From the NCBI GenBank assembly GCA_030041155.1, contig JASHOJ010000047.1, forward strand, positions 14,905-78,904: a stretch of 64,000 nucleotides of DNA. The letters are read 5' to 3'. The position numbers and the translations under genes were made by a program. The DNA is from Candidatus Binataceae bacterium. GTDB taxonomy: Bacteria > Desulfobacterota > Binatia > Binatales > Binataceae. The notes beneath the pieces are model-generated. The model did not search any database. It had not been told where the DNA came from and saw only the letters and a program-made list of their open reading frames with translations. Below are positions 1 to 21,189 of the stretch, one piece after another; within the stretch, counting starts at the first letter, position 1; each line of letters starts with the position of its first letter.

Positions 1-300
1 CACCAAGGTCACGTTGGGATGATTCGCGTAACTTCCGAGCGACAATTCGATTCGCGCGCGCCGGTCAGACGGAGCTTCGATGAAAAATCGTTTCACCCCG
101 GCGCGTTCGCAGGAGAGCAGAAGCCGCTCCAGCAACGATCTTCCGAAAATGCGATTATCGGGGCGCGAAGGGGCGGCAATCAGGGCCGTTTCTATTGGCA
201 AGGTCTTTTAGAACCCGGTTTCGTGTCGGACTGTCCGACGGGTCAACGTAACATGCTCTTAACCGGAGAGCTAGAAGGTCGAGTTGAGAAAAGTCCATAA
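1..300 (+). CDS. possible 3' end of an unrecognised upstream ORF (partial); may be non-coding
   Basis: Frame is open from the window edge to TAA at 298-300. Third-codon positions are A/T-rich compared with neighbouring genes. No recognisable domain. Confidence 0.12.
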   Translation, partial: HQGHVGMIRVTSERQFDSRAPVRRSFDEKSFHPGAFAGEQKPLQQRSSENAIIGARRGGNQGRFYWQGLLEPGFVSDCPTGQRNMLLTGELEGRVEKSP

Positions 301-385
301 AGTTTGTTTATGAATCGCCTTATCTGTGTACAACCGTGTTAATGGCGCAGAACTGGATGCGCGGGAGTCGGAGCGCGCCGAACTT

Positions 386-415
386 GCCCGACTGAAGGCG
401 CTCAGGGGCTTTTTG
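386..415 (+). terminator. Rho-independent terminator-like hairpin followed by a TTTTT run
   Basis: GCCC...CTGA-aggcgc-TCAG...GGGC nested stem, then TTTTTG at 410-415. Confidence 0.35.
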
Positions 416-655
416 ATGCAACTGACGGTTGCCGTGTAATCGGCGATAAGATCGCGTTCGACAATTGATTATGATGCAGCCGGGGAGATTGCGCCACCAA
501 TTTTTCGCGACCCCGCAAGCCTCTGCGGAACTCTCCTTAAGCTTTTGCGCGCTCTCCTGAGCATCCGCTTGCGGCGCTGATTTACTGGACTCGAATATTC
601 GGCACGCTTATCGAGCGAGAGCCAAAATTCCGCTTTCCGCTTGCATTTCCTCCGG

Positions 656-707
656 GATCGCGCTCACCGCGATCTCGCATCATGTATCAGGCGGGGGAAA
701 GCCGCCT
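656..707 (+). promoter_or_regulatory. two tandem hairpins in the leader of the HAD/NTase operon
   Basis: GATCGCG-ctcac-CGCGATC (656-674) and AGGCGG-gggaaag-CCGCCT (689-707). They lie 36-90 nt upstream of the ATG at 743. Confidence 0.2.
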
Positions 708-742
708 AGAGACTGCGAATCGGCGCTGGTAGACTTTGTGCC

Positions 743-1465
743 TTGCCGATGATCACTACAATCCTATTCGATTTCGGCAGCACCCTTGACGGACCGGTGT
801 ACTGGTTGGACCGCTTCGTTGATCAGTACCGCGCCGCCGGATTTGCTATCTCGCGCGACCGGCTGGACCCGGCTTACTCGCATGCGATCGCCGCTGCCGG
901 CCGAGCTCCGCGAGCAATCTCTCGCTTCGGAATGAAGGACCTGGTGCGTTTTCTTGCCGGGCAACAGGTGGAACTTCTCGCCTCTGAACATCCGCCGAAT
1001 AGCGGCTTGCCGCTCGATTCGCGCGGCAGGAGCCGCTTGGTTGAGACAGTGAGCACGGGTTTCGTTGTGCAGATGCGTCGGGACCTGGAACACAGCCGCG
1101 CGGTGATCGAAAAGCTCAAGCCGCGCTACCGCTTGGGAATAGTGGCGAACTGGTATGGCGACCTCGATCGAATACTGGCCGAGGTGCAGATGAGCGCGCT
1201 GTTTGCCGTCGTTGTCGATTCCGCCAAAGTTGGGTTTCGCAAGCCCGACTCGCGGATGTTCACGACCGCGATGGCCGCCGCGGGATCGCGTCCTGAGACG
1301 ACCGCGATGGTTGGAGATTCGGTTGAGAAAGACTGCGTCCCGGCGCGCGCCCTCGGAATGAAAACCGTACTGTATAGGCCTCTTGGGGAGAAAACAGCCA
1401 GCCTCGAAGCGGCGGCGGATTTCACGATCGCGTCGCTCGATGAACTTCTGGAGCTCTACTGGTGA
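743..1465 (+). CDS. HAD-IA family hydrolase/phosphatase (possibly a phosphomutase)
   Basis: N-terminal motif I ILFDFGSTLDG and C-terminal MVGDSVEKD motif. Stop overlaps the GTG start of the next gene. Confidence 0.7.
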   Translation: MPMITTILFDFGSTLDGPVYWLDRFVDQYRAAGFAISRDRLDPAYSHAIAAAGRAPRAISRFGMKDLVRFLAGQQVELLASEHPPNSGLPLDSRGRSRLVETVSTGFVVQMRRDLEHSRAVIEKLKPRYRLGIVANWYGDLDRILAEVQMSALFAVVVDSAKVGFRKPDSRMFTTAMAAAGSRPETTAMVGDSVEKDCVPARALGMKTVLYRPLGEKTASLEAAADFTIASLDELLELYW

Positions 1466-2178
1466 GCGGTTTCAAAGGGGCAATTCTGGCGGCTGGGCGG
1501 GGCGAGCGCCTGCGTGCCTCGGGCGGCGCGTTCTTGCCGAAGCCGCTGGTCGAACTCGGCGGATCTCCGATGCTCGCGCGGCAGGCGACGGCGCTCCTCG
1601 AGGCCGGCGCAGGCGAGGTGCTTGCGATTATCAACAGCGAGACGGCCGCGCTTCTGAAGCCGGAGAAATTTCCGCCGAAACTCAGCCTGATGGTTCGCGA
1701 CACGCCGAACTCGATGGAATCGCTGTTCGCCTTGGGCGAGCGGCTTTCCGCCGGACATTTTCTGCTCGCCACAGTGGACGCGGTGATGCCCGAATCCGAG
1801 CTGCGGGCGTTCGTCGAGGCCGCGTTCGTACGCCTTTCCGCGTCAAATACAGGCTCCGATGCGGGAGTGCTGGCAGTGGTCAGGTGGCGCGGCGACCGTA
1901 ACCCGCTTTTCACATCCGTAACATCGGCGGGGTTGATCACGGAACTGGGCGCGCGGTCTGCTGAGATGGTCACCGCCGGATTCTATGTGCTGCCGGCCTT
2001 GATCTTCCGGCTGGTGGATAAAGCCAGGCGCCAAAGGCTCGGCGCGATGCGCGAGTTTCTGGCGCTCTTGCTGAATGAAGGATTTTGCCTGCAAGCGATC
2101 GAAGTGAAGAACGCAATCGACGTTGACGAGGCGCCCGACCTGGATGCGGCGCGCCGCCTGGCGGAGAACAATCGATGA
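1462..2178 (+). CDS. sugar-phosphate nucleotidyltransferase (HddC/LicC/IPCT-like)
   Basis: N-terminal GAILAAGRGERL signature of NDP-sugar pyrophosphorylases. GTGA overlap with the upstream gene and ATGA overlap with the downstream gene. Confidence 0.65.
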   Translation: MSGFKGAILAAGRGERLRASGGAFLPKPLVELGGSPMLARQATALLEAGAGEVLAIINSETAALLKPEKFPPKLSLMVRDTPNSMESLFALGERLSAGHFLLATVDAVMPESELRAFVEAAFVRLSASNTGSDAGVLAVVRWRGDRNPLFTSVTSAGLITELGARSAEMVTAGFYVLPALIFRLVDKARRQRLGAMREFLALLLNEGFCLQAIEVKNAIDVDEAPDLDAARRLAENNR

Positions 2179-3008
2179 GTATGCGTGCGATTGGAGTCTA
2201 CCGTGAAAAGGAATTCTCTCCCGGCAAGGTCGAAGCGGATGCGGCTATTCTTGACGCCGTTCTAAGCGAACTCTCCGCCGCCGGCGTTTCGACCGTTGCC
2301 ATGGATGCGCACCAGTTTATCTCGGAAATCGATCTGCGGACCGACCTGGTGATGGCGATGTGCCAGGGCGAAGGCGCGCTGCGCCGGCTTGCCGAGATCG
2401 AGCGGTCGGGCGCGGTGGCAATCAACTCCGCGCTTTCGATCCGCAACTGCTATCGCGATCTTCTGGCGGCAGGGCTTGCACAATCGGGAGTGCCGACACC
2501 CGCGGGCGCGCTGCTCTCGACCAGCGTACTGCCGAGCGCCGGCGCGCTCGGCGGTCTGGACCTGTCACTGCCGCTGTTCGTCAAGCGTGGCGACTTGCAC
2601 GCGCTTGGTCCCGACGATGTACAGCGTGCGGTCGGGCGCGCCGACCTGGAGGCGCGCATGGCGAGCTTTGCGCGCCGAGGTATTCCGCAGGTCTATGTGC
2701 AGCAGGAATTTGCCGGCGACGTGGTCAAGTTTTATGGAGTAAGCGGCGGTTCCTATTTCTGCGCGATTGCCGATTCCGGCGAGCTGCCCGAATCGATCCT
2801 GCAGGGTCTTTCCGAGGCGGCGCAAAGAGCCGCGCTGATGCTGGGGCTCGAGGCGTGGGGCGGCGACGCGGTATTGAGCGGCGATCGGTTTGCTATTATC
2901 GATTTTAACGATTGGCCAAGTTACAGCAGGGTACGGATGCGCGCCGCTCAGGCGATAGCGCGCCGGGCTTTAGCCCTGGTCCGGACGCCCGCGATGGCGC
3001 GGGCATAG
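2175..3008 (+). CDS. atypical ATP-grasp-like protein (possible small-molecule kinase or ligase)
   Basis: PLFVKRGD...H segment and C-terminal EAWGGDAV...FAIIDFNDWP resemble the ATP-grasp catalytic core. There is no Gly-rich loop. Call is from pattern recognition only. Confidence 0.35.
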   Translation: MSMRAIGVYREKEFSPGKVEADAAILDAVLSELSAAGVSTVAMDAHQFISEIDLRTDLVMAMCQGEGALRRLAEIERSGAVAINSALSIRNCYRDLLAAGLAQSGVPTPAGALLSTSVLPSAGALGGLDLSLPLFVKRGDLHALGPDDVQRAVGRADLEARMASFARRGIPQVYVQQEFAGDVVKFYGVSGGSYFCAIADSGELPESILQGLSEAAQRAALMLGLEAWGGDAVLSGDRFAIIDFNDWPSYSRVRMRAAQAIARRALALVRTPAMARA

Positions 3009-3101
3009 ACCGCCTACGAGTAAACGAAGTCGAACAGGGTCGATCGAGATCGATCTCGAGTTAGGTCCGAGTGACCTTGGGGGGAAGAGACAGCTTATCT
3101 G

Positions 3102-4460
3102 ATGGCATCCAACGGCAAGCTTCCGTCAATCCGGACCTCGGTCCCGGGTCCCAAATCGGCTGAAATCTTCGCTCATGAGCAGCGCAACATCGCGCCCGGT
3201 CGGCAGCGAATTTCGCTGCTGGCGGGTGTCGCCTTCGATCATGGCGACGGCGCCACGCTGACTGATGCGGACGGCAACACCTACGTCGATTTTTACGCCG
3301 GCGTCGCGGTGGCGAGCCTCGGGCATGGAAATGCGCGTCTTGCGCAGGCGCTTGCTCGCCAGGCCTCGCGCCTGATCGTCGGCACTTTCGCCACCAAGGA
3401 GCGCGCCGAAGCCTTCGAGCTGCTAAGCCAGGCCGCGCCGGGCAAGCTCAAGCGGTCGCATTTTTATAGTGGCGGCGCGGAGGCTGTAGAGGCGGCGCTG
3501 AGACTCGCACGCTCGGTCACCAAAAAGCACGAGGTGGTCGGTTTCTGGGGTGGTTTTCACGGCAAAACCGGTGGCGTGCTCGGCCTGATCGGCGACGAAT
3601 CAAAGCAGGGTTACGGTCCGCTGCCGGGCGGTCGCTATCAGGTGCCGTATGCCGATTGTTACCGCTGCCCGTTTAAGCTCGAGCATCCCGGATGCGGGCT
3701 TGCCTGCGTCGATTTCGCGCGCGAGCAGATAAAAAATTCGTCGGCCGGCGACGTCGCCGCAATCCTGGTCGAACCGATGCAGGGAACCGCGGGCAATGTT
3801 ATTCCGCCTGATGACTGGCTTCCCGCTATCAAGTCGCTCGCGAAGGAATTCGGTGCGCTTTTGGTCGCTGACGAGATGATCACCGGCTTCGGCCGCACCG
3901 GAAAGATGTGGGGAGTGGAGCATAGCGGCACCGAGCCGGACGTGATCACGGTCGGCAAGGGGATGGGGTCGGGGTTTCCCGTCTCGGGTGTGCTTCTGAG
4001 CGATGAACTCGGCAGGGCGGAGCCATTCGGCAAGCCCAGCGCGTCGTCTTCGAGCTACGGCGGAAATCCGCTCGCGGCAGTCGCGGTGGCAGAGACCCTC
4101 AAGACGATTCGCGACGAAAAGCTGGTCGAGAACTCGCGAAAGGTGGGCGCCAAGATGCTCTCGCGGCTCAAGCAGCTTCAAGAAAAATACGAGTTTATCG
4201 GCGACGTGCGTGGCCGCGGCCTGCTGATCGGAATCGAGCTGGTGCGCGATCTGAAAACCCGCGAACTTCTGAACCGAAAGATAACCGAACTGATTTTCGT
4301 CGAGGCGCTGAGGCGCGGCCTTATCACGATGGGCTATTTTCCGAGAATTCGAATCAATCCGCCGCTCGTGATTACCGAGTCGCAGGCCGAGGCGGGAGTC
4401 GCGATCCTGGATGAAGTCTTCGCCCACGTACGCGATCACGTGGACTGGCGCGCCGCGTAG
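3102..4460 (+). CDS. class-III (omega) aminotransferase, PLP-dependent; possible HpnO-like enzyme
   Basis: LVADEMITGFGRTGKMWG and the PLP-lysine region TVGKGMGSGFP, as in the AcOrn/GABA/ornithine aminotransferase family. Confidence 0.8.
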   Translation: MASNGKLPSIRTSVPGPKSAEIFAHEQRNIAPGRQRISLLAGVAFDHGDGATLTDADGNTYVDFYAGVAVASLGHGNARLAQALARQASRLIVGTFATKERAEAFELLSQAAPGKLKRSHFYSGGAEAVEAALRLARSVTKKHEVVGFWGGFHGKTGGVLGLIGDESKQGYGPLPGGRYQVPYADCYRCPFKLEHPGCGLACVDFAREQIKNSSAGDVAAILVEPMQGTAGNVIPPDDWLPAIKSLAKEFGALLVADEMITGFGRTGKMWGVEHSGTEPDVITVGKGMGSGFPVSGVLLSDELGRAEPFGKPSASSSSYGGNPLAAVAVAETLKTIRDEKLVENSRKVGAKMLSRLKQLQEKYEFIGDVRGRGLLIGIELVRDLKTRELLNRKITELIFVEALRRGLITMGYFPRIRINPPLVITESQAEAGVAILDEVFAHVRDHVDWRAA

Positions 4461-4475
4461 GACAAAAATCGCTCC

Positions 4476-4949
4476 ATGCCCGAATCATCTGGAAACGCGG
4501 CGCTGTTCCTTGATCTCGGCGGCACGCTTATCAAGCTCGACGAGACTCAGGAAATTCCGCAGGATTCAAACGGCAGCGTCATCGTCGAACTCCTCGATAA
4601 TGTCGCCGATCGCCTGCGCCCGATGCGCGAGTACCTGATGTTCGTGGTCACGAATCAGTCCAAGATTAAGCGCGGGCGCTTCACGATGGATCAAATCGAA
4701 GACGCCCTCCGGGTGCTTGACCAGAAGCTCGGCGACATCCTGACCGCCTGGAAGGTGTGCCCGCACGACGATGCTGACGGTTGCGAATGCCGCAAGCCAA
4801 AATGCGGCATGATCACTGAACTGGCCGGCCTCTATGGGGTCGACTTGTCGAACTCGATCATGGTCGGCGACAGCCCCGCGGATGAGGGCGCGGCTCGCGC
4901 GGCCGGAGTCAAATTCATCCACGCTCGCGATTTCTTCGGCTGGCGCTGA
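4476..4949 (+). CDS. HAD-IIIA phosphatase, GmhB (D,D-heptose-1,7-bisphosphate phosphatase)-like
   Basis: LFLDLGGTL motif I, Zn-binding CPHDDADGCECRKPKCGM motif, and MVGDSPADEGAA motif. Confidence 0.7.
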   Translation: MPESSGNAALFLDLGGTLIKLDETQEIPQDSNGSVIVELLDNVADRLRPMREYLMFVVTNQSKIKRGRFTMDQIEDALRVLDQKLGDILTAWKVCPHDDADGCECRKPKCGMITELAGLYGVDLSNSIMVGDSPADEGAARAAGVKFIHARDFFGWR

Positions 4950-5524
4950 AAGCGCGTCGCGCCCGAACTCAACGTGCGTGCGCGCGGAAGGCGGCCAGGG
5001 TTTCGAGTGCGGGGCAGGGACCCGATTCGAATGTAAGCAGACGTCGATGGCTCTCCTCGGCATCCAACTGTTTTCCATCGTCTGCGAGCGCTTCAATCTT
5101 GTTCCGATCCACCCGAAAGCCCCATTTGCATCGTATGCAGAAGTAAATCCGGGTCCCTCGGCTCACTTGCGCGTCGCCGTTCAGGACTGGCCCAATCACG
5201 TATTCATGACGCAGGGCGCGCCCGGTTGGCGGCAATTGTTGGTACGAACGAAAGCTCACGCATATAGCAAGTGGCAATTACTGGACCGGATCGGAAAAGC
5301 GCGGCGGTTAAGCAATTTCACACAAATTGCCAGCGCGGCCGCGGGATGCATTGTTGAACAACGCGATGCGTCATTGCATTCCGCATGGCGCGCGGCCTTC
5401 ATGAATGCAGCGTCTGAGACGACATTGGCTGCAGAGGAACGCCGATGGGTGCGGGTGGACAATTGGCCGGCGCGAGCGAGATACTCAGCCCGATATTTTC
5501 GGAATCGCCCGGGGTGCATCGATC

Positions 5525-6376
5525 ATGAAAATCGGTCTGCTTACGCCATTCAGCGGTCGAAACGGAAATCCAGCAGAGTTCGCACGCATCGCCGAGTCGC
5601 TCGGCTACGAATCCATCTGGGTGCCGGAGCATCCCGCGGTTCCGGCTAATCCCGCGTCGAAATTTCCCGCCGGGGGCGATATTCCGCCGATCTATTTTTC
5701 GATGGGCGATCAGATGATCGCGCTCGCGATGGCTGCTGGAGCCACGACCAAGCTCAAGCTTGCAACCGGCATCTGCCTGGTGCCGGAGCATAACGCGATC
5801 GCGATAGCCAAGCAGATAGCGTCGCTCGATGCGTTTTCGGGCGGGCGATTTATCTTCGGAATCGGCGCGGGATGGCTGCGCGAGGAATCCGAACTTTTCG
5901 GCGTCGACTTTCCGCGCAGGTGGACTCAGACCGCGGAGATGGTTGCCGCGATGCGCGAGTTATGGAGCCGCGAGGAAGCATCGTTCGAAGGCAAGTACAT
6001 CCGTTTCTCGAAAATCAAGTGTGCGCCCAAGCCGCTGCGCAAGGATGGTCCGCCGGTCGTGATCGGAAGCCTGGATAAGAACGCGCTGAAACGAGTGGCG
6101 AAGTGGGCCGACGGATGGTGCCCGATCCGAATCTCGGCTGACTTTCTGGCGGGCAAGCTCGCGGAGCTGAAGCGTGAATGCGCCGAACTGGGGCGCGACT
6201 TCTCCCGGCTCGATATTACCGTGATGGGATACATTCGCGGTGACCGATCCGCCGTGCAGGATGAATTGGCCAAGTTCGCGCAGGCGGGCGCCACGCGCTT
6301 TGTCATCGGCCTCGGCGAATTCACCCCCGAGACGATGGGACACACGCTGGAGCGTTTCGCCGCCACGTTCGTTTAG
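5525..6376 (+). CDS. LLM-class flavin/F420-dependent oxidoreductase
   Basis: Luciferase-like monooxygenase fold starting MKIGLLTPF...ESIWVPEHP. Start chosen at the internal ATG typical of the family. Confidence 0.65.
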   Translation: MKIGLLTPFSGRNGNPAEFARIAESLGYESIWVPEHPAVPANPASKFPAGGDIPPIYFSMGDQMIALAMAAGATTKLKLATGICLVPEHNAIAIAKQIASLDAFSGGRFIFGIGAGWLREESELFGVDFPRRWTQTAEMVAAMRELWSREEASFEGKYIRFSKIKCAPKPLRKDGPPVVIGSLDKNALKRVAKWADGWCPIRISADFLAGKLAELKRECAELGRDFSRLDITVMGYIRGDRSAVQDELAKFAQAGATRFVIGLGEFTPETMGHTLERFAATFV

Positions 6377-6548
6377 GTCGCCACTTTTCCGCGCCAAACT
6401 TCTCAAATCCGCAGTGCAGCCGCGCGATGGCGATGCAGTCGCGGGACTGCATCCAGATGTGCACAAGATCCAATCAATTCCACGGCTTTACGCATGGCAA
6501 TCCTCTTGCTGTTGCGTCTCAAGCGAGACTTACGGAGGACGCTTAGGG

Positions 6549-6797
6549 ATGATTTCCATGATTCTGATCGGACTTATCGCTGGATGGCTTGCCGGTAAGG
6601 CGGTCCGCGGCAACGGTTATGGGATGCTGGCGGACGTTGTGCTAGGTCTGGTGGGTGCGGTGCTGGGTGGCTGGATCTTTGGCGCGGTTGGATTTCATGC
6701 ACATCACCTCGTCAGCTTGATTGGCGTGGCGACTTTAGGCGCGATCACGCTGGTGATGTGCGCGCGGCTGGCTACCGGCGAATTGTTCGACGACTGA
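6549..6797 (+). CDS. GlsB/YeaQ/YmgE-family transglycosylase-associated small membrane protein
   Basis: LIGLIAGWLAG...GGWIFGAVGF Gly-rich transmembrane repeat. GGAGG ribosome-binding site lies upstream. Confidence 0.55.
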   Translation: MISMILIGLIAGWLAGKAVRGNGYGMLADVVLGLVGAVLGGWIFGAVGFHAHHLVSLIGVATLGAITLVMCARLATGELFDD

Positions 6798-6900
6798 AGC
6801 CGGTGGGAGAGTGTGCGCGCGGATGAAGCGGCGGCGCAGCGGTGCGAGTTGGATCGCGCACCTCTCCCAAAGGAGCGACTGAACAAATACAACTTTTGCT

Positions 6901-7935
6901 GTGAAACTGCGCGGCGCAATCTCCGGGTTTGGCGAAGTGGCCGCCCGGGCCCATTTGCCCGGATGGCTTGCACGCGAGGCGGTTGATATCCGCGTGGTGC
7001 ACGATCCTATTTCCGAACGGCGCCACGAGGCGATTCGCCATATCAAAGGCGTGCGGGTTTATGACGACCTTGAGCTGATGCTCGATGGCGAAGCGCCGGA
7101 TTTCGTGGATATCGCGAGTCCGCCGGCCTTCCATGCTGCCGCGGTGCGAACGGCTCTCAAAGCGGGAGCGCACGTGCTGATCGAAAAGCCGATGTGCCTC
7201 TCGCTGGACGAGTTTGATGACTTGTGCTCGATCGCGCGGCAGACTGGCCGCGTCCTGTGCTGCGTTCACAACTGGAAGTACGCGCCCGCCTATGCGAAAG
7301 CCGCCAAACTTATCGCGGAAGGCCGATTGGGAGCGGTGCGATTTATCTCTCTCGACCGCCTGCGAACCGCGCCTGCCGGAGCCGGCGGCTCGGGGGGGCA
7401 GTGGCGTGCTTCCGTCGCCTCGGGCGGCGGCATCCTGATCGATCATGGATGGCACGTCTTTTACCTTATGCAGTGGCTAATGGGTGGCGAACCAGCGCTC
7501 GCGATTTCCGCGAAACTCGGCGATGCCGGCGAAAGCGGAGCCGAACAGACCGCCGATCTGCGCGTCTCGTTTCCAGGAGGACGGCTCAGCGGTAACCGGA
7601 TTGCGCGTGCTTACCTGTCGTGGCGATCGCCCGTCCGGCGCACCTCGGCGCTTATCTACGGCGAAACCGGGATGCTGGAAATCGAAGGCGATAATGTCCG
7701 GCTTATTGATAGCGACGGACGCATAGAGACATTTTCGGCAGAAGACGCCCCCGATGACTCTTATCATGCGGGATGGTTTGCAGGCGTAGCCTCAGCTTTT
7801 GAGCGCGCCATCTCGGAGGGTCCGGACTCACCATCTGCCCGGGTGAATTTGGCCGAGGCGCGCAACGCGCTGGCACTAACTATCGCGTCGCGCGAATCGT
7901 CAGCATCGGGTTCCGAGATTAGTCTGGCTCGATGA
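6901..7935 (+). CDS. Gfo/Idh/MocA-family NAD(P)-dependent oxidoreductase (inositol/sugar dehydrogenase family)
   Basis: N-terminal Rossmann GFGEVA, the DFVDIASPP...HVLIEKPM motif. GTG start. Confidence 0.7.
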   Translation: MKLRGAISGFGEVAARAHLPGWLAREAVDIRVVHDPISERRHEAIRHIKGVRVYDDLELMLDGEAPDFVDIASPPAFHAAAVRTALKAGAHVLIEKPMCLSLDEFDDLCSIARQTGRVLCCVHNWKYAPAYAKAAKLIAEGRLGAVRFISLDRLRTAPAGAGGSGGQWRASVASGGGILIDHGWHVFYLMQWLMGGEPALAISAKLGDAGESGAEQTADLRVSFPGGRLSGNRIARAYLSWRSPVRRTSALIYGETGMLEIEGDNVRLIDSDGRIETFSAEDAPDDSYHAGWFAGVASAFERAISEGPDSPSARVNLAEARNALALTIASRESSASGSEISLAR

Positions 7936-8035
7936 ACTGCGCTCCTGACCGTCGGTCAATTTGAGCATCGGTCCGACGGCTGTCGTTAGCTTTATCTCGC
8001 TGCCTGACCGACTGACCGCTTGGACGGTACTCTTC

Positions 8036-8063
8036 TTGACTTAGATTTTAGCGGCGCTAGAGT
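8036..8063 (+). promoter_or_regulatory. sigma70-like promoter candidate for tetR/hpnH
   Basis: TTGACT (8036-8041), 16-nt spacer, TAGAGT (8058-8063). A 7-bp inverted repeat CCGTCGG/CCGACGG lies just upstream. Confidence 0.3.
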
Positions 8064-8149
8064 AATTATTGACCGAAGGGTTAGCGGCGACGGCTCCTAC
8101 CCCACGGTTAAGTTGCACTGATGCAATCTTCATCTTTCAGGACCAGGTC

Positions 8150-8809
8150 ATGAGTGCATTATCGGCAAGAGCTGGGTCGGTTGAGGTGCGCGGGGGCTCT
8201 CAGGACTCGCGCGACGAAATCCTGAAAGCGGCGATGCATCTATTCGCCAGCCGCGGCTTCCATGAGACCTCGATGTCGGAGGTTGCGCGGGAGGCGCGGG
8301 TCAGCAAAGCGCTGATCTTCTGGCACTTTAAGACCAAAGAAGAGCTATTCGTGGCGGTGTTGAATCGCCTGCTCGAACCCTACTTTATCGATTTTTCCGA
8401 AGAGGCCGGCGTGCTGGACGAGCGCGCGCAGCTACGGAAGCTGGTTGAATTTTATCTATTGTTCGTGCGCGACAACGCGAGTTCGGTGCGATTCTTTATC
8501 GCCCAAATGCTGCACGATCAGCACTTTGCGGAGGGACTCAACGAGCAGGTTCTGAAACTCTACTCGGGCTACCGGAACATGCTTATCGAGCTGATCTCGC
8601 GCGCGCAGGAGAAAAATCTCTGCTCGCGGCAGTTTACGCCGGCGGCTGCGGCGGGCTTCCTGCTATCGGCGCTCAATGGAATTCTGATTGAACATCTTTT
8701 CGTCCAGAACCATCCACTCGATCCGGAGAGCGCGACCGCCATGGTCAGTGGATGGCTTTTCGGCGAAGACCTGAAACCCGCGGATCGCGAGGGAAAAGCT
8801 TTCGCCTGA
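8150..8809 (+). CDS. TetR/AcrR-family transcriptional regulator
   Basis: N-terminal HTH ILKAAMHLFASRGFHETSMSEVAREARVSKALIFWHFKTKEELF. Located 30 bp upstream of hpnH on the same strand. Confidence 0.8.
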   Translation: MSALSARAGSVEVRGGSQDSRDEILKAAMHLFASRGFHETSMSEVAREARVSKALIFWHFKTKEELFVAVLNRLLEPYFIDFSEEAGVLDERAQLRKLVEFYLLFVRDNASSVRFFIAQMLHDQHFAEGLNEQVLKLYSGYRNMLIELISRAQEKNLCSRQFTPAAAAGFLLSALNGILIEHLFVQNHPLDPESATAMVSGWLFGEDLKPADREGKAFA

Positions 8810-8839
8810 ACTTCCTTAGCCAGAACCTGGAGAGCAACA

Positions 8840-9844
8840 ATGCGGATGCCGCTTAAGCAAATGATCGACCTCGGCCGGTATGTGCGAGCCAGAAAAAAGG
8901 CCGGCGAGAAGTACTTTCCGCTGGTGCTGATGCTCGAGCCGCTGCACGCGTGCAATCTAGCCTGTATCGGATGCGGCCGGATTGTCGAATACAAAGACAC
9001 CATCCGCGACATGATGCCGCTCGAAGAGGCGCTCGCCTCGGCTGAGGAATGCGGAGCGCCGCTAGTCTCGATCTGCGGCGGAGAGCCGCTGATGTACAAG
9101 CATATCGTGCCGCTCACCACCCGGCTCATGGAAGAGCAGAAGCGGCACGTGATGATCTGCACCAACGCAATCCTGCTCGAACGATTCGTCAAGCAAGTGC
9201 CGCCTTCGCCCCGTCTGAGCTTCAATCTTCACCTCGACGGGATGCGAGACACCAATGATCGGGTGACCGATCGCAAAGGGCATTTCGATATCGTGATCAA
9301 GATGATCCGGATGCTCAAAGAGAAGGGTTACCGGGTCCAGACCAATACCACCGTGTTCCGGGAAACGACCGCCGAAGAATTGGAGGAGATGGTCAAGTAT
9401 CTCGGCAGTCTCGGAGTCGATGGGATGCTGCTCAGCCCCGGCTATCATTACCAGGTGCTGACCAACGATGAGCTGTACCTGACCGGCGATCAGAGCGTGG
9501 CGAAATTCCGCCGGGTCCGTGATCTCTCGCACGACTACAACGTGATCAACACGCCCATCTATCTGGACTACCTGGTCGGCGAACGCGATCTCCTGTGCAG
9601 CCCGTGGACCACGGTCACGCGCAATCCTCAGGGATGGAAGGGGCCCTGCTATCTAATTACCAACGGCCACTATAAGACGTTCGCGGATATGCACGAGAAG
9701 ACCGATTGGGAGTTCTATCGCACCAAGCAGGATGTCCGATGCCGCGACTGTAAGATGCATTCCGGTTTCGAGGGGACGGTCGCGATGGATTTCGGCAGGA
9801 ACCTGAAGGATTCGTGGCGGATGGTTCGCCATTACATGGCCTGA
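8840..9844 (+). CDS. hpnH: hopanoid biosynthesis radical-SAM protein HpnH (adenosylhopane synthase)
   Basis: LVLMLEPLHACNLACIGCGRI CxxxCxxC motif and overall HpnH architecture. Confidence 0.85.
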   Translation: MRMPLKQMIDLGRYVRARKKAGEKYFPLVLMLEPLHACNLACIGCGRIVEYKDTIRDMMPLEEALASAEECGAPLVSICGGEPLMYKHIVPLTTRLMEEQKRHVMICTNAILLERFVKQVPPSPRLSFNLHLDGMRDTNDRVTDRKGHFDIVIKMIRMLKEKGYRVQTNTTVFRETTAEELEEMVKYLGSLGVDGMLLSPGYHYQVLTNDELYLTGDQSVAKFRRVRDLSHDYNVINTPIYLDYLVGERDLLCSPWTTVTRNPQGWKGPCYLITNGHYKTFADMHEKTDWEFYRTKQDVRCRDCKMHSGFEGTVAMDFGRNLKDSWRMVRHYMA

Positions 9845-9945: not shown

Positions 9946-10836
9946 GTGTTTGATCTTGATCGGTACCTGAAAGACCGTGCTGCGACAGTTGAACGCGCCC
10001 TTGAGCGCGCCGTGCCGGAGGTCTCCGGTCCCGATGCGCGCCTGTCCGACGCGATGCGCTACAGCTTGCTCAGCGGCGGCAAGCGCCTTCGGCCAATCCT
10101 GGCGCTCGCCGCTTGCGAGTCGGTCGGCGGCGCAATCGAGTCCGCGATGGGGCTCGCCTGCGCGGTCGAGATGATTCACACCTACTCGCTCATCCATGAC
10201 GATCTGCCGTGTATGGACAACGACGATTTTCGCCACGGCCGCCCAACCAATCACAAGATATACGGCGACGCGATGGCCACGCTGGCCGGCGATGCGCTGC
10301 TGACCGACGCGTTCAAGGTGCTGGCCCGATCGGTTTCGGAAGCCGTGCCGCTTGAGCTTATGGTCGCGACTATCGCGGAGCTTTCCGAGGCCGCTGGCTC
10401 GGCTGGGATGGTTGGCGGGCAGGTGATCGATATTCAGAGCGAGAATCAGAAGCTATCGCTCGACGAGCTGAAGCATCTGCACAGCAAAAAGACCGGCGCG
10501 CTTTTCCGAGCCTCGATATTGGGAGGCGCACGGCTTGGCGGCGCGAGCGCCGCGGAGATGGTCTCGCTGGAAGCCTTCGCGCGCGCCGTAGGGCTGGCGT
10601 TTCAGGTGGTCGACGACATCCTTGATGTGGAATCGACCACCGAAAAAATGGGCAAGCGGACGCAGAAGGACGATGCTCTGGGCAAGGCGACTTTCCCCGC
10701 ACTGCTCGGACTCGAAGAATCGCACGCGTTCGCCCGCTCTCTGATGCACACGGCGCACAGCGCGATTGCGGGCTTCGGCGATCGCGCCGAACCTTTGCGC
10801 CAGATCGCAGCGTTCATGGTGGAGCGCAAATCATGA
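9946..10836 (+). CDS. ispA: polyprenyl (farnesyl/geranylgeranyl) diphosphate synthase
   Basis: First and second Asp-rich motifs LIHDDLPCMDNDDFRHGRPT and FQVVDDILD. GTG start. Confidence 0.85.
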   Translation: MFDLDRYLKDRAATVERALERAVPEVSGPDARLSDAMRYSLLSGGKRLRPILALAACESVGGAIESAMGLACAVEMIHTYSLIHDDLPCMDNDDFRHGRPTNHKIYGDAMATLAGDALLTDAFKVLARSVSEAVPLELMVATIAELSEAAGSAGMVGGQVIDIQSENQKLSLDELKHLHSKKTGALFRASILGGARLGGASAAEMVSLEAFARAVGLAFQVVDDILDVESTTEKMGKRTQKDDALGKATFPALLGLEESHAFARSLMHTAHSAIAGFGDRAEPLRQIAAFMVERKS

Positions 10837-11891
10837 GCGCCGCCCCGGCTTATCAAACTCGGTCCGCGCGCCGCGCGATGCTGATCGAGCCGGGCCGTCT
10901 GGAGCTTTGCGCGTACGCTCCGCCCCGCCCGGGTCCGGGCGAGCTGCTACTTCAGGTGCGTTGCGCTTTGAGCTGCGGAACTGACCTGAAGGCATGGCGC
11001 CGCGGTCATCCCTTGTGGAAGCTGCCGATGCCCTTCGGGCACGAGTTCTCGGGCGTGGTGATCGAAGCCGGATCCGGAGTAAGCGCCTTCAAGGCCGGCG
11101 ATGAAGTGATGGCGGCGCCTACCGCGCCATGCGGCGAATGCTTTTACTGCGCGCGCGGGGACGAAAATCTGTGCCCCGATGCGGTCGGGCGGATGCTGCA
11201 CGGAGCATACGCGGACCTGATCGTGATTCCGGCGCATATCGTCGCGCGCAATACGTTTATCAAGCCGCGCGATCTTCCGTTCGAAGAAGCCGCGCTCCTG
11301 GAACCACTTTCGTGCGTCGTGCATGCGCAAGCGATGGCCGCGCCTGCCGCGCACGAGACAGCCATGGTCATCGGCGCCGGTGCATTTGGATTGCTTCACA
11401 TGATTGTTTTGCGCGCCGCCGGTGTTCGCCAGATAGTGGTCGCCGGACGCGGCGACGCGCGGCTTAGGTGGGCGGCCGACCTGGGCGCCGATCGCGTAAT
11501 CGATGTGCGCGCACAGGATGCAGCTTCCGAGATCGCGCGCTTAAACGGCGGTTTCGGCCCCGACCTGGTCATCGAATGCACCGGGCAAGTGGATGGATGG
11601 AGCGATGCGTTCGCGCGGGTACGCCGCGGCGGGCGGGTGGTATTTTTTGGCGGATGCGCGCCGGGAACCGCGCTTAGCGTCGACACTCGCCGGATGCATT
11701 ACGACAACCTGACACTGCTCGCTCCGTTTCACTATCGTCCGCGTGATGTTCAGGCGGCATACGCGATGCTTTCGCGGCGAGATCTGGGAGCCGGGCGGAT
11801 TATCAACGCGCGCCGCAGCCTGGCCGATCTCGCGAGGGTGTTTGAGATGCTGGAGCAGGGGACCGTGCTCAAATGCGCGGTAATTCCGTAG
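10833..11891 (+). CDS. Zn-dependent medium-chain alcohol dehydrogenase (threonine/sorbitol-DH-like) embedded in the hopanoid cluster
   Basis: CGTDLKAW...GHEFSG...Zn-site Cys cluster CGECFYCARGDENLC and a GxGxxG Rossmann motif. ATGA overlap with ispA. Confidence 0.75.
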   Translation: MSAAPAYQTRSARRAMLIEPGRLELCAYAPPRPGPGELLLQVRCALSCGTDLKAWRRGHPLWKLPMPFGHEFSGVVIEAGSGVSAFKAGDEVMAAPTAPCGECFYCARGDENLCPDAVGRMLHGAYADLIVIPAHIVARNTFIKPRDLPFEEAALLEPLSCVVHAQAMAAPAAHETAMVIGAGAFGLLHMIVLRAAGVRQIVVAGRGDARLRWAADLGADRVIDVRAQDAASEIARLNGGFGPDLVIECTGQVDGWSDAFARVRRGGRVVFFGGCAPGTALSVDTRRMHYDNLTLLAPFHYRPRDVQAAYAMLSRRDLGAGRIINARRSLADLARVFEMLEQGTVLKCAVIP

Positions 11892-19393: not shown

Positions 19394-20290
19394 ATGCATC
19401 TGCTGATAGGCACGATCCTGCTCAGGCCGTATGTGTTCGTATTCCTGGTGAGCTTCCTGTTCATCGCGATCGTGAACTTCGGCGTTCGCACCACGATCCT
19501 GTTTTCGATTCTCACCTACGGCGTCGCGCTCGGATGCGAATGGTCATCGGTGCATAACGGGTTCCCATTCGGCCTTTATCATTATGTATACGCAACCCGC
19601 GAGCGCGAACTGTGGGCCGCCGGCGTGCCGGTGTTCGATTCTCTGTCGTTCACTTTTCTTGCGTTTGCCAGTTACACCGTCGCGCTGCTCTTGAGCTCGC
19701 CGCTTTATCGCCGCGGATGGGATCTGCGGATTCTGGACACCTGGAAGATTCGCCGTTCGCCGCGCGTGTGGCTGATGGCGGCGCTGTTCATGGTGATGAT
19801 CGACATGGTGGTCGATCCGCTGAGCGTGCGCGGCGAGAAATGGTTTCTCGGCAGGATATTCTGGTACGACCCGGCCGGACCGCACTTTGGAGTTCCGATC
19901 AGCAATTACCTGGGATGGTACTTCGTCGGCGCGATCACGATCGCGATCTTTGTCGCGCTCGATCAGCTCCTGAATCGATCGGCCGCGCGTCCCGCGGGAG
20001 TGGCGGAGCGATTGCCGTCACGCGCGATTCTGGGGCCGCTGCTCTACGCCGGAATAGCGATCTTCGGAATCACGATGCTGTTTTGGATCGGCGCGGCTGA
20101 AATCGCATGGGCCAGCGTCTTCATCTATCTGCCGTTCGCCGCCCTGGTCGCGCATATTCTGACCCGGAGCGGCTCGTATGGTGACGCCGCGGACCGGGAG
20201 CGTCATCTGGCCGACTTTCACTACGAGCGGGATCTTCCGGTGTTTACCTGCGAATCGGGTGAAACCGCCCCGCTGCGGCGCCGGCTATGA
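19394..20290 (+). CDS. polytopic membrane protein, DUF422 / 'carotenoid biosynthesis protein'-like, hopanoid-cluster associated
   Basis: Seven or more predicted TM helices and a conserved GFPFGLYHY segment. No catalytic motif recognised. Confidence 0.5.
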   Translation: MHLLIGTILLRPYVFVFLVSFLFIAIVNFGVRTTILFSILTYGVALGCEWSSVHNGFPFGLYHYVYATRERELWAAGVPVFDSLSFTFLAFASYTVALLLSSPLYRRGWDLRILDTWKIRRSPRVWLMAALFMVMIDMVVDPLSVRGEKWFLGRIFWYDPAGPHFGVPISNYLGWYFVGAITIAIFVALDQLLNRSAARPAGVAERLPSRAILGPLLYAGIAIFGITMLFWIGAAEIAWASVFIYLPFAALVAHILTRSGSYGDAADRERHLADFHYERDLPVFTCESGETAPLRRRL

Positions 20291-21063
20291 CGGCGGCCGG
20301 AAAGCCTGGCGCGCGGAGTTTCTCCGCGCAGGACCACCGCCTCCAGCGCGTCGGCAAGCGTGCGCGTTGCGCGTCCGAGATTTCGCATCATCCGCGGCAA
20401 CCGCAATATGACGCCCGGGTTGCTTGCGATAAATCTGGCCGCGTCGCGTCCGCGAACCTTGCCGTCCGGGCCGGCGATATCTCCGCCAATCACGTCTTCA
20501 TCGACCGCATCCATCACCGCGCGCATCACCGCGAACCTGAGCCCCAGTCTTTCGGCCTCAAGCGCGATCGCGGCGGTTTCCATATCGACCGCAATCGCGC
20601 CGGTCAGCGTTTTTGCGGCCCGCTTCTCGGCTCCGGTGCCGAGAAGCAGGCGCGAGCTGAGGATCGCGCCGGTCGAGTACTCGACCCGCGCGAGCCGCAG
20701 AAAGCGCCCGAGTTCTGCCAGATTCTGATCCGCGATCACCGCGACGTGCCGTACCGTAGCATCGTGGTCGCGGGCGATTATCCGGTCGGCGAGCACCAAA
20801 TCGCCCGCGGCCAGTCCGCTCGACAGAGCACCGGCTACGCCAGTGCCAATCACGATTTCCGGATCCGGAAAAAGATCGAACGCGCGCCGCGCGGCGGCGC
20901 TCGCGCGGTCGAACCCCATTCCAGTCGCGACCGCCGCAATCTGAATGCCGCCAATTTGCGCGCGAAATCCCTTCAAATGCGGATCGCCCAGCGCAAGCGT
21001 CGGCTTTATCCGGCGTCTGAACGCGCCGACTTCCCGAGCGAACGCATAGAAGATCAGGATCAA
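20221..21063 (-). CDS. hpnG: hopanoid-associated phosphorylase HpnG (PNP/MTA-nucleosidase family)
   Basis: PNP_UDP_1 fold: AVATGMG...VIGTGVAGAL...AVDMETAA. The low-complexity C-terminal tail overlaps the convergent membrane-protein gene by 70 nt. Confidence 0.75.
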   Translation of the reverse strand: MILIFYAFAREVGAFRRRIKPTLALGDPHLKGFRAQIGGIQIAAVATGMGFDRASAAARRAFDLFPDPEIVIGTGVAGALSSGLAAGDLVLADRIIARDHDATVRHVAVIADQNLAELGRFLRLARVEYSTGAILSSRLLLGTGAEKRAAKTLTGAIAVDMETAAIALEAERLGLRFAVMRAVMDAVDEDVIGGDIAGPDGKVRGRDAARFIASNPGVILRLPRMMRNLGRATRTLADALEAVVLRGETPRARLSGRRHSRRRSGAVSPDSQVNTGRSRS

Positions 21064-21189
21064 GTCAACTGTCCCGGCGATGCCTCAAAGTCTTGAGCAG
21101 AACCCCGGATACAAGCAAAATTGCGCGGAGATGAAAGTACGTCAAGCTGCTACCGTACTCTTGGATGCTGCTGGACACGGTTACCGTCT

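What the first reader, a model, noticed from the sequence alone, without database searches (positions are those of the whole stretch)
743..4949. Translationally coupled five-gene operon for an undescribed nucleotide-activated amino-sugar/polyol-phosphate pathway
Five co-directional genes with GTGA/ATGA overlaps and short gaps. In order they encode a HAD-IA enzyme (this family includes phosphomutases), an HddC/LicC/IPCT-type nucleotidyltransferase (GAILAAGRGERL), an ATP-grasp-like protein lacking the Gly-rich loop (possibly an ITPK-like small-molecule kinase), a class-III aminotransferase and a GmhB-type Zn-HAD phosphatase. GmhB plus an HddC-like enzyme recalls NDP-heptose synthesis. Here, however, the GHMP kinase is replaced by an ATP-grasp protein, and an omega-aminotransferase is added. 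I know no described pathway with this gene combination. Its position beside the hopanoid cluster suggests a lipid or envelope head-group product.
Basis: partly seen in the sequence, partly recalled or inferred. Interest (0 to 1): 0.68.

Follow-up and report, generated by a model that had tools for sequence, protein, structure and literature searches.

The report
Amino-inositol lipid head-group operon
The five genes are real and form the soluble half of a widely conserved but biochemically untested pathway that probably makes a CDP-activated inositol-type (here probably amino-inositol) head group for a membrane lipid; it is an amino-modified relative of a putative gut-Bacteroides inositol-lipid cluster, not a heptose or hopanoid pathway.

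Summary
The organism is a Candidatus Binataceae bacterium.

The operon is collinear in 42 related loci. Nearly always it faces a divergent IPCT/DIPPS-like CDP-alcohol phosphotransferase, whose 5' end is window 1-~200 on the minus strand, cut by the window edge.

Genes A (HAD), B (nucleotidyltransferase) and C (an orphan ATP-grasp with no Pfam or NCBIfam family) form a core with that transferase. This core is also found in Desulfarculales, Syntrophobacteraceae, Bdellovibrionales and gut Bacteroidales. In Bacteroidales it is the 'putative alternative inositol lipid cluster' of Heaver et al. 2022, which never mentions C.

Fusions link the steps: B-C, A-B-C and C-transferase. Variants carrying the class-III aminotransferase and a Gfo/Idh/MocA dehydrogenase contain myo-inositol-1-phosphate synthase in three lineages.

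Best reading: a Kennedy-type CDP-cyclitol phospholipid pathway, probably yielding an inosamine head group, with C as the cyclitol kinase. That role is inferred; a ligase role is not excluded.

The heptose analogy is unsupported. Hopanoid adjacency holds in only 14 of 35 loci. I rate this a new variant of a known kind, of moderate-to-good interest.

The parts
1..200 (-). 5' end (about 66 codons) of the divergently transcribed IPCT/DIPPS-like CDP-alcohol phosphotransferase, cut by the window edge. The start codon was not fixed. The N-terminal domain resembles a degenerate nucleotidyltransferase.
   Evidence: tblastn of the L050 transferase hits window 195-1 (55% identity). BLASTP against the L001 orthologue gives E=4e-10. 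Full-length orthologues carry DGxDGxxAR..G...D...D, and their best NCBIfam hits are DIPPS, archaetidylinositol-phosphate synthase and PIP synthase.
743..1465 (+). Gene A: HAD-IA-type hydrolase. Motif I is D[FY]GGT, so Asp+2 is replaced by Gly. Proposed role: (inositol-)phosphate phosphatase.
   Evidence: Pfam and NCBIfam. The motif is conserved in 76 orthologues from Binatia to Bacteroidales. It is 28% identical (E=4e-24) to the P. vulgatus cluster HAD. It is fused to B-C in P0207.
1462..2178 (+). Gene B: NTP_transf_3 nucleotidyltransferase. Proposed role: CTP:cyclitol-phosphate cytidylyltransferase.
   Evidence: including weak hits to IPCT/DIPPS, MurU and AglF. PDB relatives are MurU, ManC, HddC-like proteins and IPCT. 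B lies next to C in 77 of 79 loci. Six B-C fusion representatives were found.
2175..3008 (+). Gene C: orphan ATP-grasp enzyme with no Pfam or NCBIfam family. Proposed role: cyclitol or cyclitol-phosphate kinase; a ligase role is not excluded.
3102..4460 (+). Gene D: class-III (GABA-AT/omega-type) PLP aminotransferase. Proposed role: installs the amino group on the oxidised cyclitol.
   Evidence: Pfam 320 bits. The nearest PDB relative is the archaeal GABA-AT-like protein 7vno. Orthologues at 49-62% identity follow A-B-C in L048-L050, L068 and L082.
4476..4949 (+). Gene E: small HAD-IIIA protein (GmhB / HisB-N-like) with a Zn loop. Motif I is DL[GAVCT]GT. It is a Binatia-specific accessory gene. 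Its role is unknown; a phosphatase acting on an amino-cyclitol phosphate is a guess.
   Evidence: NCBIfam: histidinol-phosphatase domain 85.1 against 84.15 bits, GmhB 90 against 178 bits. Found in 43 loci, all Binatia-type.
5525..6376 (+). F420-dependent LLM-class oxidoreductase (likely start at MKIGLL). A frequent but not constant neighbour and a possible alternative oxidoreductase.
   Evidence: TIGR03619 scores 239 against a cut-off of 167. An LLM gene lies within 3 kb of E in 23 of 37 loci, in two identity classes.
6901..7935 (+). Gfo/Idh/MocA oxidoreductase. Proposed role: inositol dehydrogenase that makes the keto-cyclitol substrate for D.
   Evidence: The best NCBIfam hit is IolG (72.6 bits, below the cut-off of 355). 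Homologues lie directly after the aminotransferase in L048-L050 and L082, and next to MIPS in L068. It is present in 16 of 35 Binatia-type loci.

Best explanation
The operon is the cytoplasmic half of a Kennedy-type pathway that builds a CDP-activated cyclitol head group. It hands this to a CDP-alcohol phosphotransferase encoded divergently just upstream, which is truncated at the window's left edge. The product is an inositol-type phospholipid.

Proposed order (inferred):
1. myo-Inositol-phosphate synthase, encoded elsewhere in this genome, makes inositol 3-phosphate.
2. The HAD enzyme A removes that phosphate.
3. A dehydrogenase (the Gfo/Idh/MocA protein at 6901-7935 and/or the F420-dependent LLM enzyme) oxidises one ring hydroxyl.
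4. The class-III aminotransferase D converts the ketone to an amine, giving an inosamine.
5. The ATP-grasp enzyme C phosphorylates the cyclitol.
6. B converts the phosphate ester and CTP into the CDP-cyclitol.
7. The membrane transferase couples phospho-cyclitol to a lipid alcohol (diacylglycerol or ceramide).

E is a Binatia-specific accessory phosphatase-like protein.

Shown by these analyses:
- the genes, their folds and their catalytic motifs;
- the conserved order;
- the A/B/C/transferase fusions;
- the co-occurrence with MIPS, with an MprF-like TM protein and with HpnN-like transporters.

Inferred:
- every substrate;
- the kinase role of C;
- the order of steps;
- the amino-inositol product;
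- the lipid acceptor.
For: Conservation. A-B-C-D-E is collinear in 42 loci, and almost all with enough upstream sequence have the divergent CDP-alcohol transferase.

Core across lineages. The A+B+C+transferase core recurs in Desulfarculales and Syntrophobacteraceae (L050, L054), Bdellovibrionales (L068), an unclassified MAG (L082) and more than 25 Bacteroidales loci. The P. vulgatus locus reads NTP - C - CDP-OH_P_transf - LPG_synthase_TM - HAD - MFS - MIPS. This is the putative alternative inositol-lipid cluster that Heaver et al. associated with PI-dihydroceramide production (PMC9246714).

Fusions. NTP-C (six representatives), HAD-NTP-C (P0207) and C-CDP-OH_P_transf (P0244).

Inositol as substrate of the amino variant. 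MIPS lies inside clusters that carry the aminotransferase and GFO:
- L049: MIPS-A-B-C-AT-GFO.
- L068: GFO-MIPS-C-transferase-LPG_TM..AT.
- L082: LPG_TM-[A-B-C]-AT-GFO-transferase-X-MIPS.
Binatia locus L041 has MIPS about 5 kb away.

Model matches. The transferase's three best NCBIfam models are all inositol enzymes. The best model for GFO is IolG.

Gene C. It has an ATP-grasp fold with intact ATP and Mg residues. ATP-grasp inositol-phosphate kinases are among its closest structures and profiles.

Background knowledge. Kinase-nucleotidyltransferase fusions such as HldE, Fkp and LicCA are a known theme. The sequence phosphatase, dehydrogenase, aminotransferase, kinase is the established route from inositol phosphate to scyllo-inosamine phosphate in streptidine biosynthesis.
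Against: - There is no MIPS in the 64-kb window.
- GFO is adjacent in only 16 of 35 Binatia-type loci, and 10 of 35 have neither GFO nor LLM nearby.
- All matches to characterised inositol enzymes (IPCT, DIPPS, PIP synthase, IolG, ITPK) are far below the curated cut-offs.
- C is as close to the ligase RimK (HHalign 93%) as to ITPK1 (86%), and Ddl tops both structure searches.
- Known inosose aminotransferases belong to the DegT class, not class III (background knowledge).
- A dephosphorylate-then-rephosphorylate cycle looks wasteful.
- Even the simpler Bacteroidales cluster is functionally unconfirmed (PMC9246714).
- No inosamine lipid is reported in the searchable literature.
Confidence: 0.55

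Rival explanations
1. The pathway is the same, but C is an ATP-grasp ligase rather than a kinase. It would activate a carboxylate such as an amino acid and attach it, by amide or ester bond, to the (amino)cyclitol head group. The MprF-like TM protein would then flip the decorated lipid.
For: - HHalign to RimK gives 93% probability, E=2e-7.
- 31 of 110 family members weakly hit ATPgrasp_ST, 21 hit RimK and 11 hit TTL.
- D-Ala-D-Ala and D-Ala-D-Lac ligases are the top structural matches.
- LPG_synthase_TM co-occurs in L050, L053, L068, L082 and L083.
- JGI annotates homologues as RimK-type ligase-like.
Against: - Bacteroidales clusters have C but no aminotransferase, and the lipid reported for them is plain PI-dihydroceramide (PMC9246714).
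- No gene supplying a carboxylate substrate is conserved in the clusters.
- C is tied most tightly to the nucleotidyltransferase: adjacent in 77 of 79 loci and fused in six representatives.
- The LPG_synthase_TM homologue also occurs in the BT-type cluster, which lacks C (PMC9246714).
Confidence: 0.25
2. The head group is a different amino-polyol, for example aminopentanetetrol as found in Aquificales, Thermodesulfobacteria and some methanogens. It would be made by transamination of an aldehyde, which is the usual class-III substrate type, rather than by amination of inositol.
For: - Aminopentanetetrol phospholipids exist, and no biosynthetic genes for them appear in the searchable literature.
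- Class-III enzymes typically act on omega-aldehydes and omega-amines (relatives: GABA, ornithine and putrescine aminotransferases).
- There is no MIPS in the window, and GFO adjacency is variable in Binatia.
- A conserved B12-radical SAM enzyme of unknown role lies nearby.
Against: - MIPS lies inside three independent aminotransferase-containing clusters.
- The transferase and GFO both score best against inositol enzymes.
- I could not test whether organisms known to make this lipid carry the cluster.
Confidence: 0.1
3. The product is a soluble di-inositol-phosphate-like compatible solute, possibly aminated. It would be made by an IPCT/DIPPS-type pair, with A as the final phosphatase, and would not be a membrane lipid.
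For: - The transferase's best model is the DIPPS half of IPCT/DIPPS (70.6 bits). It also has the same two-domain architecture, with a degenerate nucleotidyltransferase-like N-terminus.
- B weakly matches IPCT.
- The DIP pathway needs a terminal phosphatase (background knowledge).
Against: - The scores are about eight-fold below the equivalog cut-off of 580.
- The clusters carry an MprF-type TM or flippase-like protein and HpnN/BstA-like lipid transporters.
- The Bacteroidales cluster correlates with an inositol sphingolipid (PMC9246714).
- DIP is a hyperthermophile solute, whereas these are soil and gut mesophiles.
Confidence: 0.1
4. The operon modifies hopanoids. D would be an HpnO-type aminotransferase, and the CDP-activated group would be attached to a bacteriohopanepolyol side chain.
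For: - The operon lies about 4 kb upstream of HpnH, and the island continues with SHC, HpnC, HpnD, HpnE, HpnA and HpnK.
- No separate class-III aminotransferase was found among the hopanoid genes examined.
- HpnH is adjacent in 14 of 35 loci.
- An HpnN-like transporter is present in the L050 and L054 clusters (508 bits, below the cut-off).
Against: - Adjacency is absent in 21 of 35 Binatia-type loci and in every other lineage.
- The A-B-C core works in Bacteroidales, whose loci show no hopanoid genes.
- D orthologues travel with A-B-C, not with hpn genes.
- A TetR gene and two oxidoreductase genes separate the two clusters.
- I did not compare D with an authentic HpnO sequence.
Confidence: 0.08
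5. It is an NDP-heptose or other nucleotide-sugar pathway for LPS or capsule, which was the reader's analogy (GmhB + HddC).
For: E's best model is GmhB, and B weakly matches HddC-like 6-deoxy-mannoheptose pathway proteins.
Against: - Both scores are far below the cut-offs.
- E lacks Asp+2 and is restricted to Binatia.
- No glycosyltransferase, GmhA or GHMP kinase was seen in any of the clusters examined.
- The partner enzyme is a CDP-alcohol phosphotransferase.
Confidence: 0.03

Closest known systems
Bacteroides (Phocaeicola) vulgatus / Prevotella 'putative alternative inositol lipid cluster' (Heaver et al. 2022, PMC9246714)
   Same: It has homologous NTP-transferase (B, 33% identity), HAD hydrolase (A, 28%, with the same D[FY]GGT motif) and ATP-grasp (C, 35%) genes next to a CDP-alcohol phosphotransferase. 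The same Kennedy-type logic via CDP-inositol was proposed for it. In both cases the function is unconfirmed.
   Different: The Binatia version adds a class-III aminotransferase, a GmhB-like HAD and often LLM and Gfo/Idh/MocA oxidoreductases. It has a longer IPCT/DIPPS-like transferase that is only 25-30% identical over about 100 aa, plus a B12-radical SAM gene. It lacks an adjacent MIPS and an LPG_synthase_TM gene. The paper does not mention the ATP-grasp gene at all.
IPCT/DIPPS di-myo-inositol-phosphate pathway of hyperthermophiles
   Same: A cytidylyltransferase is paired with a CDP-inositol-utilising CDP-alcohol transferase. The DIPPS domain is the best-scoring curated model for the transferase. 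The transferase has the same two-domain architecture.
   Different: The scores are far below equivalog level. The N-terminal nucleotidyltransferase-like domain is degenerate (AAPSRPDNR instead of GxGxR). The context contains lipid-flippase and transporter genes. The ATP-grasp, HAD and aminotransferase genes have no counterpart in that pathway.
ATP-grasp inositol-phosphate kinases (ITPK1 / Ins134_P3_kin, PPIP5K)
   Different: The Pfam match is not significant for the window protein (E=0.23), and the best E-value in the family is 3e-5. RimK is an equally close profile match. No activity is known.
scyllo-Inosamine branch of aminocyclitol (streptidine) biosynthesis
   Same: The proposed chemical sequence is the same: phosphatase, Gfo/Idh/MocA dehydrogenase, aminotransferase, kinase, acting on MIPS-derived inositol.
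   Different: The known aminotransferase (StsC) is DegT-class rather than class III. The known kinase is not an ATP-grasp enzyme. The known product is an antibiotic precursor, not a CDP-activated lipid head group. This comparison rests on my own knowledge and was not tested here.

Membership tests
B. vulgatus-type alternative inositol-lipid cluster | NTP-transferase homologous to BVU_RS13095 | tested here: met
   B is 33% identical to the L053 (P. vulgatus ATCC 8482) NTP-transferase over at least 50% of its length.
B. vulgatus-type alternative inositol-lipid cluster | HAD hydrolase homologous to BVU_RS13115 | tested here: met
   tblastn E=3.7e-24 at 28% identity. The motif I variant D[FY]GGT is shared.
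B. vulgatus-type alternative inositol-lipid cluster | Adjacent CDP-alcohol phosphatidyltransferase | tested here: met
   Only the 5' end lies inside the window (1-~200, minus strand). Full-length orthologues with the catalytic motif are divergent neighbours in the related loci. They are only remotely similar to the Bacteroidales enzyme.
B. vulgatus-type alternative inositol-lipid cluster | MIPS in the vicinity | tested here: not met
   There is no MIPS in the 64-kb window by tblastn or HMM. MIPS is present near one Binatia cluster (L041) and inside L049, L068 and L082.
B. vulgatus-type alternative inositol-lipid cluster | Produces inositol phospholipid or sphingolipid | not testable with these tools
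   This requires lipidomics. It is also unconfirmed genetically for the Bacteroidales cluster (PMC9246714).
NDP-heptose pathway (GmhA/HddA or HldE/GmhB/HddC) | GmhB equivalog with a DxDGT nucleophile and general-acid motif | tested here: not met
   PRK08942 scores 90.3 against a cut-off of 178, and TIGR00213 scores 65.7 against 149.6. Motif I is DLGGT.
NDP-heptose pathway (GmhA/HddA or HldE/GmhB/HddC) | Heptose-1-phosphate nucleotidyltransferase, sedoheptulose isomerase and heptose kinase in the cluster | tested here: not met
   B gives only a weak PDB hit to HddC-like proteins (E=0.003). No SIS, GHMP or PfkB gene appears among the annotated neighbours of L001, L050, L053, L068 or L082.
IPCT/DIPPS (di-myo-inositol phosphate synthesis) | Equivalog-level match to NF041135 | tested here: not met
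   The transferase scores 70.6 bits and B scores 33 bits against a cut-off of 580.
ATP-grasp superfamily (gene C) | ATP-grasp fold with the ATP-binding Lys and the Mg-binding acidic and Asn residues | tested here: met
ITPK (Ins134_P3_kin, PF05770) | Pfam gathering-threshold match | tested here: not met
   The window protein gives E=0.23 and 11.4 bits against a threshold of 23. Twenty of 110 relatives hit weakly, with a best E of 3e-5.
RimK-type ligases (PF08443) | Pfam gathering-threshold match | tested here: not met
   The window protein has no hit. Twenty-one of 110 relatives hit weakly, with a best E of 0.001.
HpnO (hopanoid aminotransferase) | Orthology to characterised HpnO and obligate linkage to hpn genes | tested here: inconclusive
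   No HpnO reference sequence or model was available, so orthology was not tested. Linkage to HpnH holds in 14 of 35 loci, while D orthologues follow A-B-C in loci without hopanoid genes.

The most novel reading that the evidence does not exclude
Binatia, an abundant uncultured soil lineage, and several other lineages (Desulfarculales, Syntrophobacteraceae, Bdellovibrionales and an unclassified MAG) make a so-far undescribed class of amino-cyclitol (inosamine) phospholipids. They would do so through a Kennedy-type CDP-cyclitol route whose kinase is a new ATP-grasp family. The same kinase and HAD-phosphatase pair would explain how gut Bacteroidales of the 'alternative cluster' type convert MIPS-derived inositol 3-phosphate into the isomer used for their inositol sphingolipids.
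Probability: 0.33. Interest if true: 0.75.

Novelty: new variant of a known kind. Interest (0 to 1): 0.58.

Why it matters
Bacterial inositol lipids are considered rare. The second, 'alternative' route to them is known only as an unconfirmed gene cluster in gut Bacteroidota.

This locus shows three things:
- The cluster's true conserved core includes an unannotated ATP-grasp enzyme, with more than 1,100 50%-identity clusters and no Pfam family.
- The core extends to soil and sediment lineages far from Bacteroidota.
- An aminotransferase/dehydrogenase-bearing variant exists that would give a zwitterionic amino-cyclitol head group.

If this is confirmed, it would:
- assign a function to an orphan enzyme family;
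- complete a pathway relevant to host-microbe lipid signalling;
- predict a new intact-polar-lipid biomarker for uncultured Binatia.

Tried and rejected
- An exact-sequence look-up of C found no source contig.
- Rfam (E up to 1) and the promoter/terminator scans on 1-9000 gave nothing above background.
- The intergenic regions (200-742, 3009-3101, 4950-5525) have no conserved DNA or significant hairpins. The apparent palindrome in the C/D spacer did not pass the repeat finder.
- Foldseek against the PDB could not separate kinase from ligase.
- The AFDB50 library was unavailable.
- The profile search with A2 returned only 'hypothetical protein' entries from Muribaculaceae and gave no new taxa.
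- Literature searches for inosamine lipids, aminopentanetetrol genes, Binatia hopanoids and follow-up work on the alternative cluster found nothing relevant.
- A as a phosphomutase was rejected, because the family-wide loss of Asp+2 is incompatible with beta-PGM-type catalysis (background knowledge).
- The upstream B12-radical SAM as HpnJ was rejected (81.6 bits against a cut-off of 577.6).
- A heptose pathway was rejected (see the membership tests).

Full report
**Observation**

The five ORFs exist exactly where stated.
- A/B overlap by GTGA and B/C by ATGA. The C/D gap is 93 nt and the D/E gap is 15 nt.
- No terminator-like site or Rfam element interrupts them.
- Pfam and NCBIfam confirm a HAD-IA-type hydrolase (A), an NTP_transf_3 nucleotidyltransferase with GAILAAGRGERL (B), a class-III aminotransferase (D) and a small HAD-IIIA protein with the GmhB/HisB-N zinc loop (E). 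C has no family at all.
E scores below both GmhB cut-offs. Both HAD proteins lack the second aspartate of motif I.

**Organism and conservation**

- Close homologues of C come from Candidatus Binataceae and Binatus MAGs.
- In 42 other loci the order A-B-C-D-E is kept, while the proteins are only 40-88% identical to the window's.
- Almost all loci with enough upstream sequence carry a divergent CDP-alcohol phosphotransferase and a B12-binding radical SAM gene.
- The window begins inside that transferase gene. Positions 195-1 on the minus strand encode its N-terminus.
- Full-length orthologues have the DGxDGxxAR...G...D...D signature and a degenerate nucleotidyltransferase-like N-terminal domain, which is the IPCT/DIPPS architecture.
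- Their three best NCBIfam models are DIPPS, archaetidylinositol-phosphate synthase and PIP synthase, all well below the cut-offs.

**The core and its relatives**

A scan of one genome per species returned 588 relatives of C. Among the 80 loci kept:
- A, B and C travel together from Binatia to Desulfarculales and Syntrophobacteraceae (L048-L050, L054), Bdellovibrionales (L068) and many Bacteroidales, including Phocaeicola vulgatus ATCC 8482.
- The P. vulgatus locus reads NTP-transferase, C, CDP-OH_P_transf, LPG_synthase_TM, HAD, MFS, then MIPS.
- This is the 'putative alternative inositol lipid cluster' of Heaver et al. 2022. They proposed CDP-inositol formation and transfer to lipid, stated that the functions are unconfirmed, and did not mention the gene between the NTP-transferase and the transferase.

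An exhaustive search found 1145 50%-identity representatives of the C family. They include NTP-transferase-C fusions, a HAD-NTP-C fusion in the same order as the operon, and a C-transferase fusion. These four activities therefore act together.

**The amino variant**

Orthologues of D (49-62% identity) follow A-B-C in L048-L050, L068 and L082. In L048-L050 and L082 a Gfo/Idh/MocA oxidoreductase follows directly. That oxidoreductase's best curated model is inositol 2-dehydrogenase IolG, though the score is low.

MIPS is embedded in three of these clusters:
- L049: MIPS-A-B-C-AT-GFO.
- L068.
- L082: LPG_synthase_TM - [A-B-C fusion] - AT - GFO - transferase - unknown - MIPS.

A Binatia locus (L041) has a MIPS, 55% identical to that of L049, about 5 kb from its cluster. 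The window itself has none.

In the window, the only homologues of the L082, L050 and L068 AT and GFO genes are D and the ORF at 6901-7935.

In Binatia-type loci the downstream neighbours vary. An F420-type LLM oxidoreductase lies within 3 kb in 23 of 37 loci. GFO is nearby in 16 of 35 and HpnH in 14 of 35.

**Mechanism**

The best-supported reading is a Kennedy-type head-group pathway. B makes a CDP-cyclitol, and the membrane transferase couples it to a lipid alcohol. In the AT-bearing variant, a ring hydroxyl is oxidised and transaminated to give an inosamine.

For C, I favour a cyclitol or cyclitol-phosphate kinase:
- Its ATP and Mg residues are invariant.
- It is welded to the nucleotidyltransferase by adjacency and fusion.
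- ATP-grasp inositol-phosphate kinases are among its nearest structures and profiles.

A would then be the phosphatase that removes the MIPS-derived phosphate. This gives free inositol for the dehydrogenase and allows re-phosphorylation at the position used for activation. Alternatively, A trims a phosphorylated lipid intermediate, as PIP phosphatase does.

The loss of Asp+2 in A is family-wide, while the nucleophile and motifs II-IV are kept. From memory, the E. coli phosphatase YihX has a similar DxG motif, so activity is plausible, but beta-PGM-type mutase chemistry is not.

The kinase assignment is not proven:
- RimK is an equally good profile match.
- Ddl leads both structure searches.
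- Weak Pfam hits are split between ATPgrasp_ST, RimK, Ins134_P3_kin and TTL.

E is confined to Binatia. Its role and that of the LLM enzyme are unknown.

**Hopanoid link**

The window does carry a hopanoid island: HpnH, FPP synthase, SHC, Dxr, HpnC, an HpnD-like gene, HpnE, HpnA and HpnK. However, adjacency is found in under half of the Binatia-type loci and in no other lineage. In Desulfarculales and Syntrophobacteraceae the cluster carries an HpnN/BstA-like HAE3 transporter, below the cut-off. That fits lipid export in general. I treat a hopanoid acceptor as a low-probability rival.

**Novelty**

The three-gene core plus transferase is known only as a putative, untested cluster. The following were not found in the searchable literature:
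- the ATP-grasp member;
- the spread of the cluster outside Bacteroidota;
- the aminotransferase/dehydrogenase variant;
- the predicted amino-cyclitol lipid.

I rate this as a new variant of a known kind.

Noticed in passing
L001:5760-7091 (minus strand) and the equivalent gene in about 40 Binatia loci; outside the window: The B12-binding radical SAM gene next to the transferase is 88-98% identical between genomes whose A-E proteins are only 40-88% identical. A 42%-identical copy sits in the Desulfarculales cluster (L050). Its best models (BchE, PhpK, HpnJ, ladderane-lipid rSAM) are all far below the cut-offs, so its role is unknown.
   Followed up: partly
window 743-1465 and 4476-4949: Both HAD proteins lack the general-acid Asp+2 of motif I. 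A has D[FY]GGT in all 76 orthologues. E has DL[G/A/V/C/T]GT in 43 orthologues. Both keep the nucleophile and motifs II-IV.
   Followed up: partly
window 21121-22095: This YdjC-family ORF passes the HpnK model (258 bits against a cut-off of 232.6). That implies BHT-glucosamine or cyclitol-ether type hopanoids, yet no HpnI or HpnJ was identified among the neighbouring ORFs I scanned.
   Followed up: partly
window 10833-11891: A Zn-dependent alcohol dehydrogenase is wedged between the FPP synthase and squalene-hopene cyclase, and it is conserved in L001. Its weak best hits are threonine dehydrogenase and scyllo-inosose 3-dehydrogenase IolM (139 bits against a cut-off of 450).
   Followed up: no
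window 19394-20290 and 20287-21096: A CruF/Caroten_synth-like membrane protein and a 269-aa ORF with no family hit lie between HpnA and HpnK.
   Followed up: no
window 4950-5525: A 576-nt spacer separates E from the LLM gene, against about 100 nt in L001. It has no DNA or translated similarity in any related locus. The listed 323-aa LLM ORF probably starts later, at MKIGLL near 5525.
   Followed up: partly
L050:13424-16195 and L054:3863-6616: An HpnN/BstA-like HAE3 (MMPL) transporter sits at the end of the Desulfarculales and Syntrophobacteraceae clusters (508 bits, below the HpnN cut-off of 752). L050 also carries a sulfotransferase and a second radical SAM gene upstream.
   Followed up: partly
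Binatia-type loci, downstream of E: The LLM oxidoreductase following E falls into two identity classes relative to the window protein (59-74% and 44-47%). This suggests that paralogues occupy the same position in different genomes.
   Followed up: no
L082:14069-15772 and L068:6355-7539: Proteins of 567 aa and 394 aa, with no Pfam or NCBIfam match, lie inside the MIPS-containing clusters. They have no counterpart in the window.
   Followed up: partly
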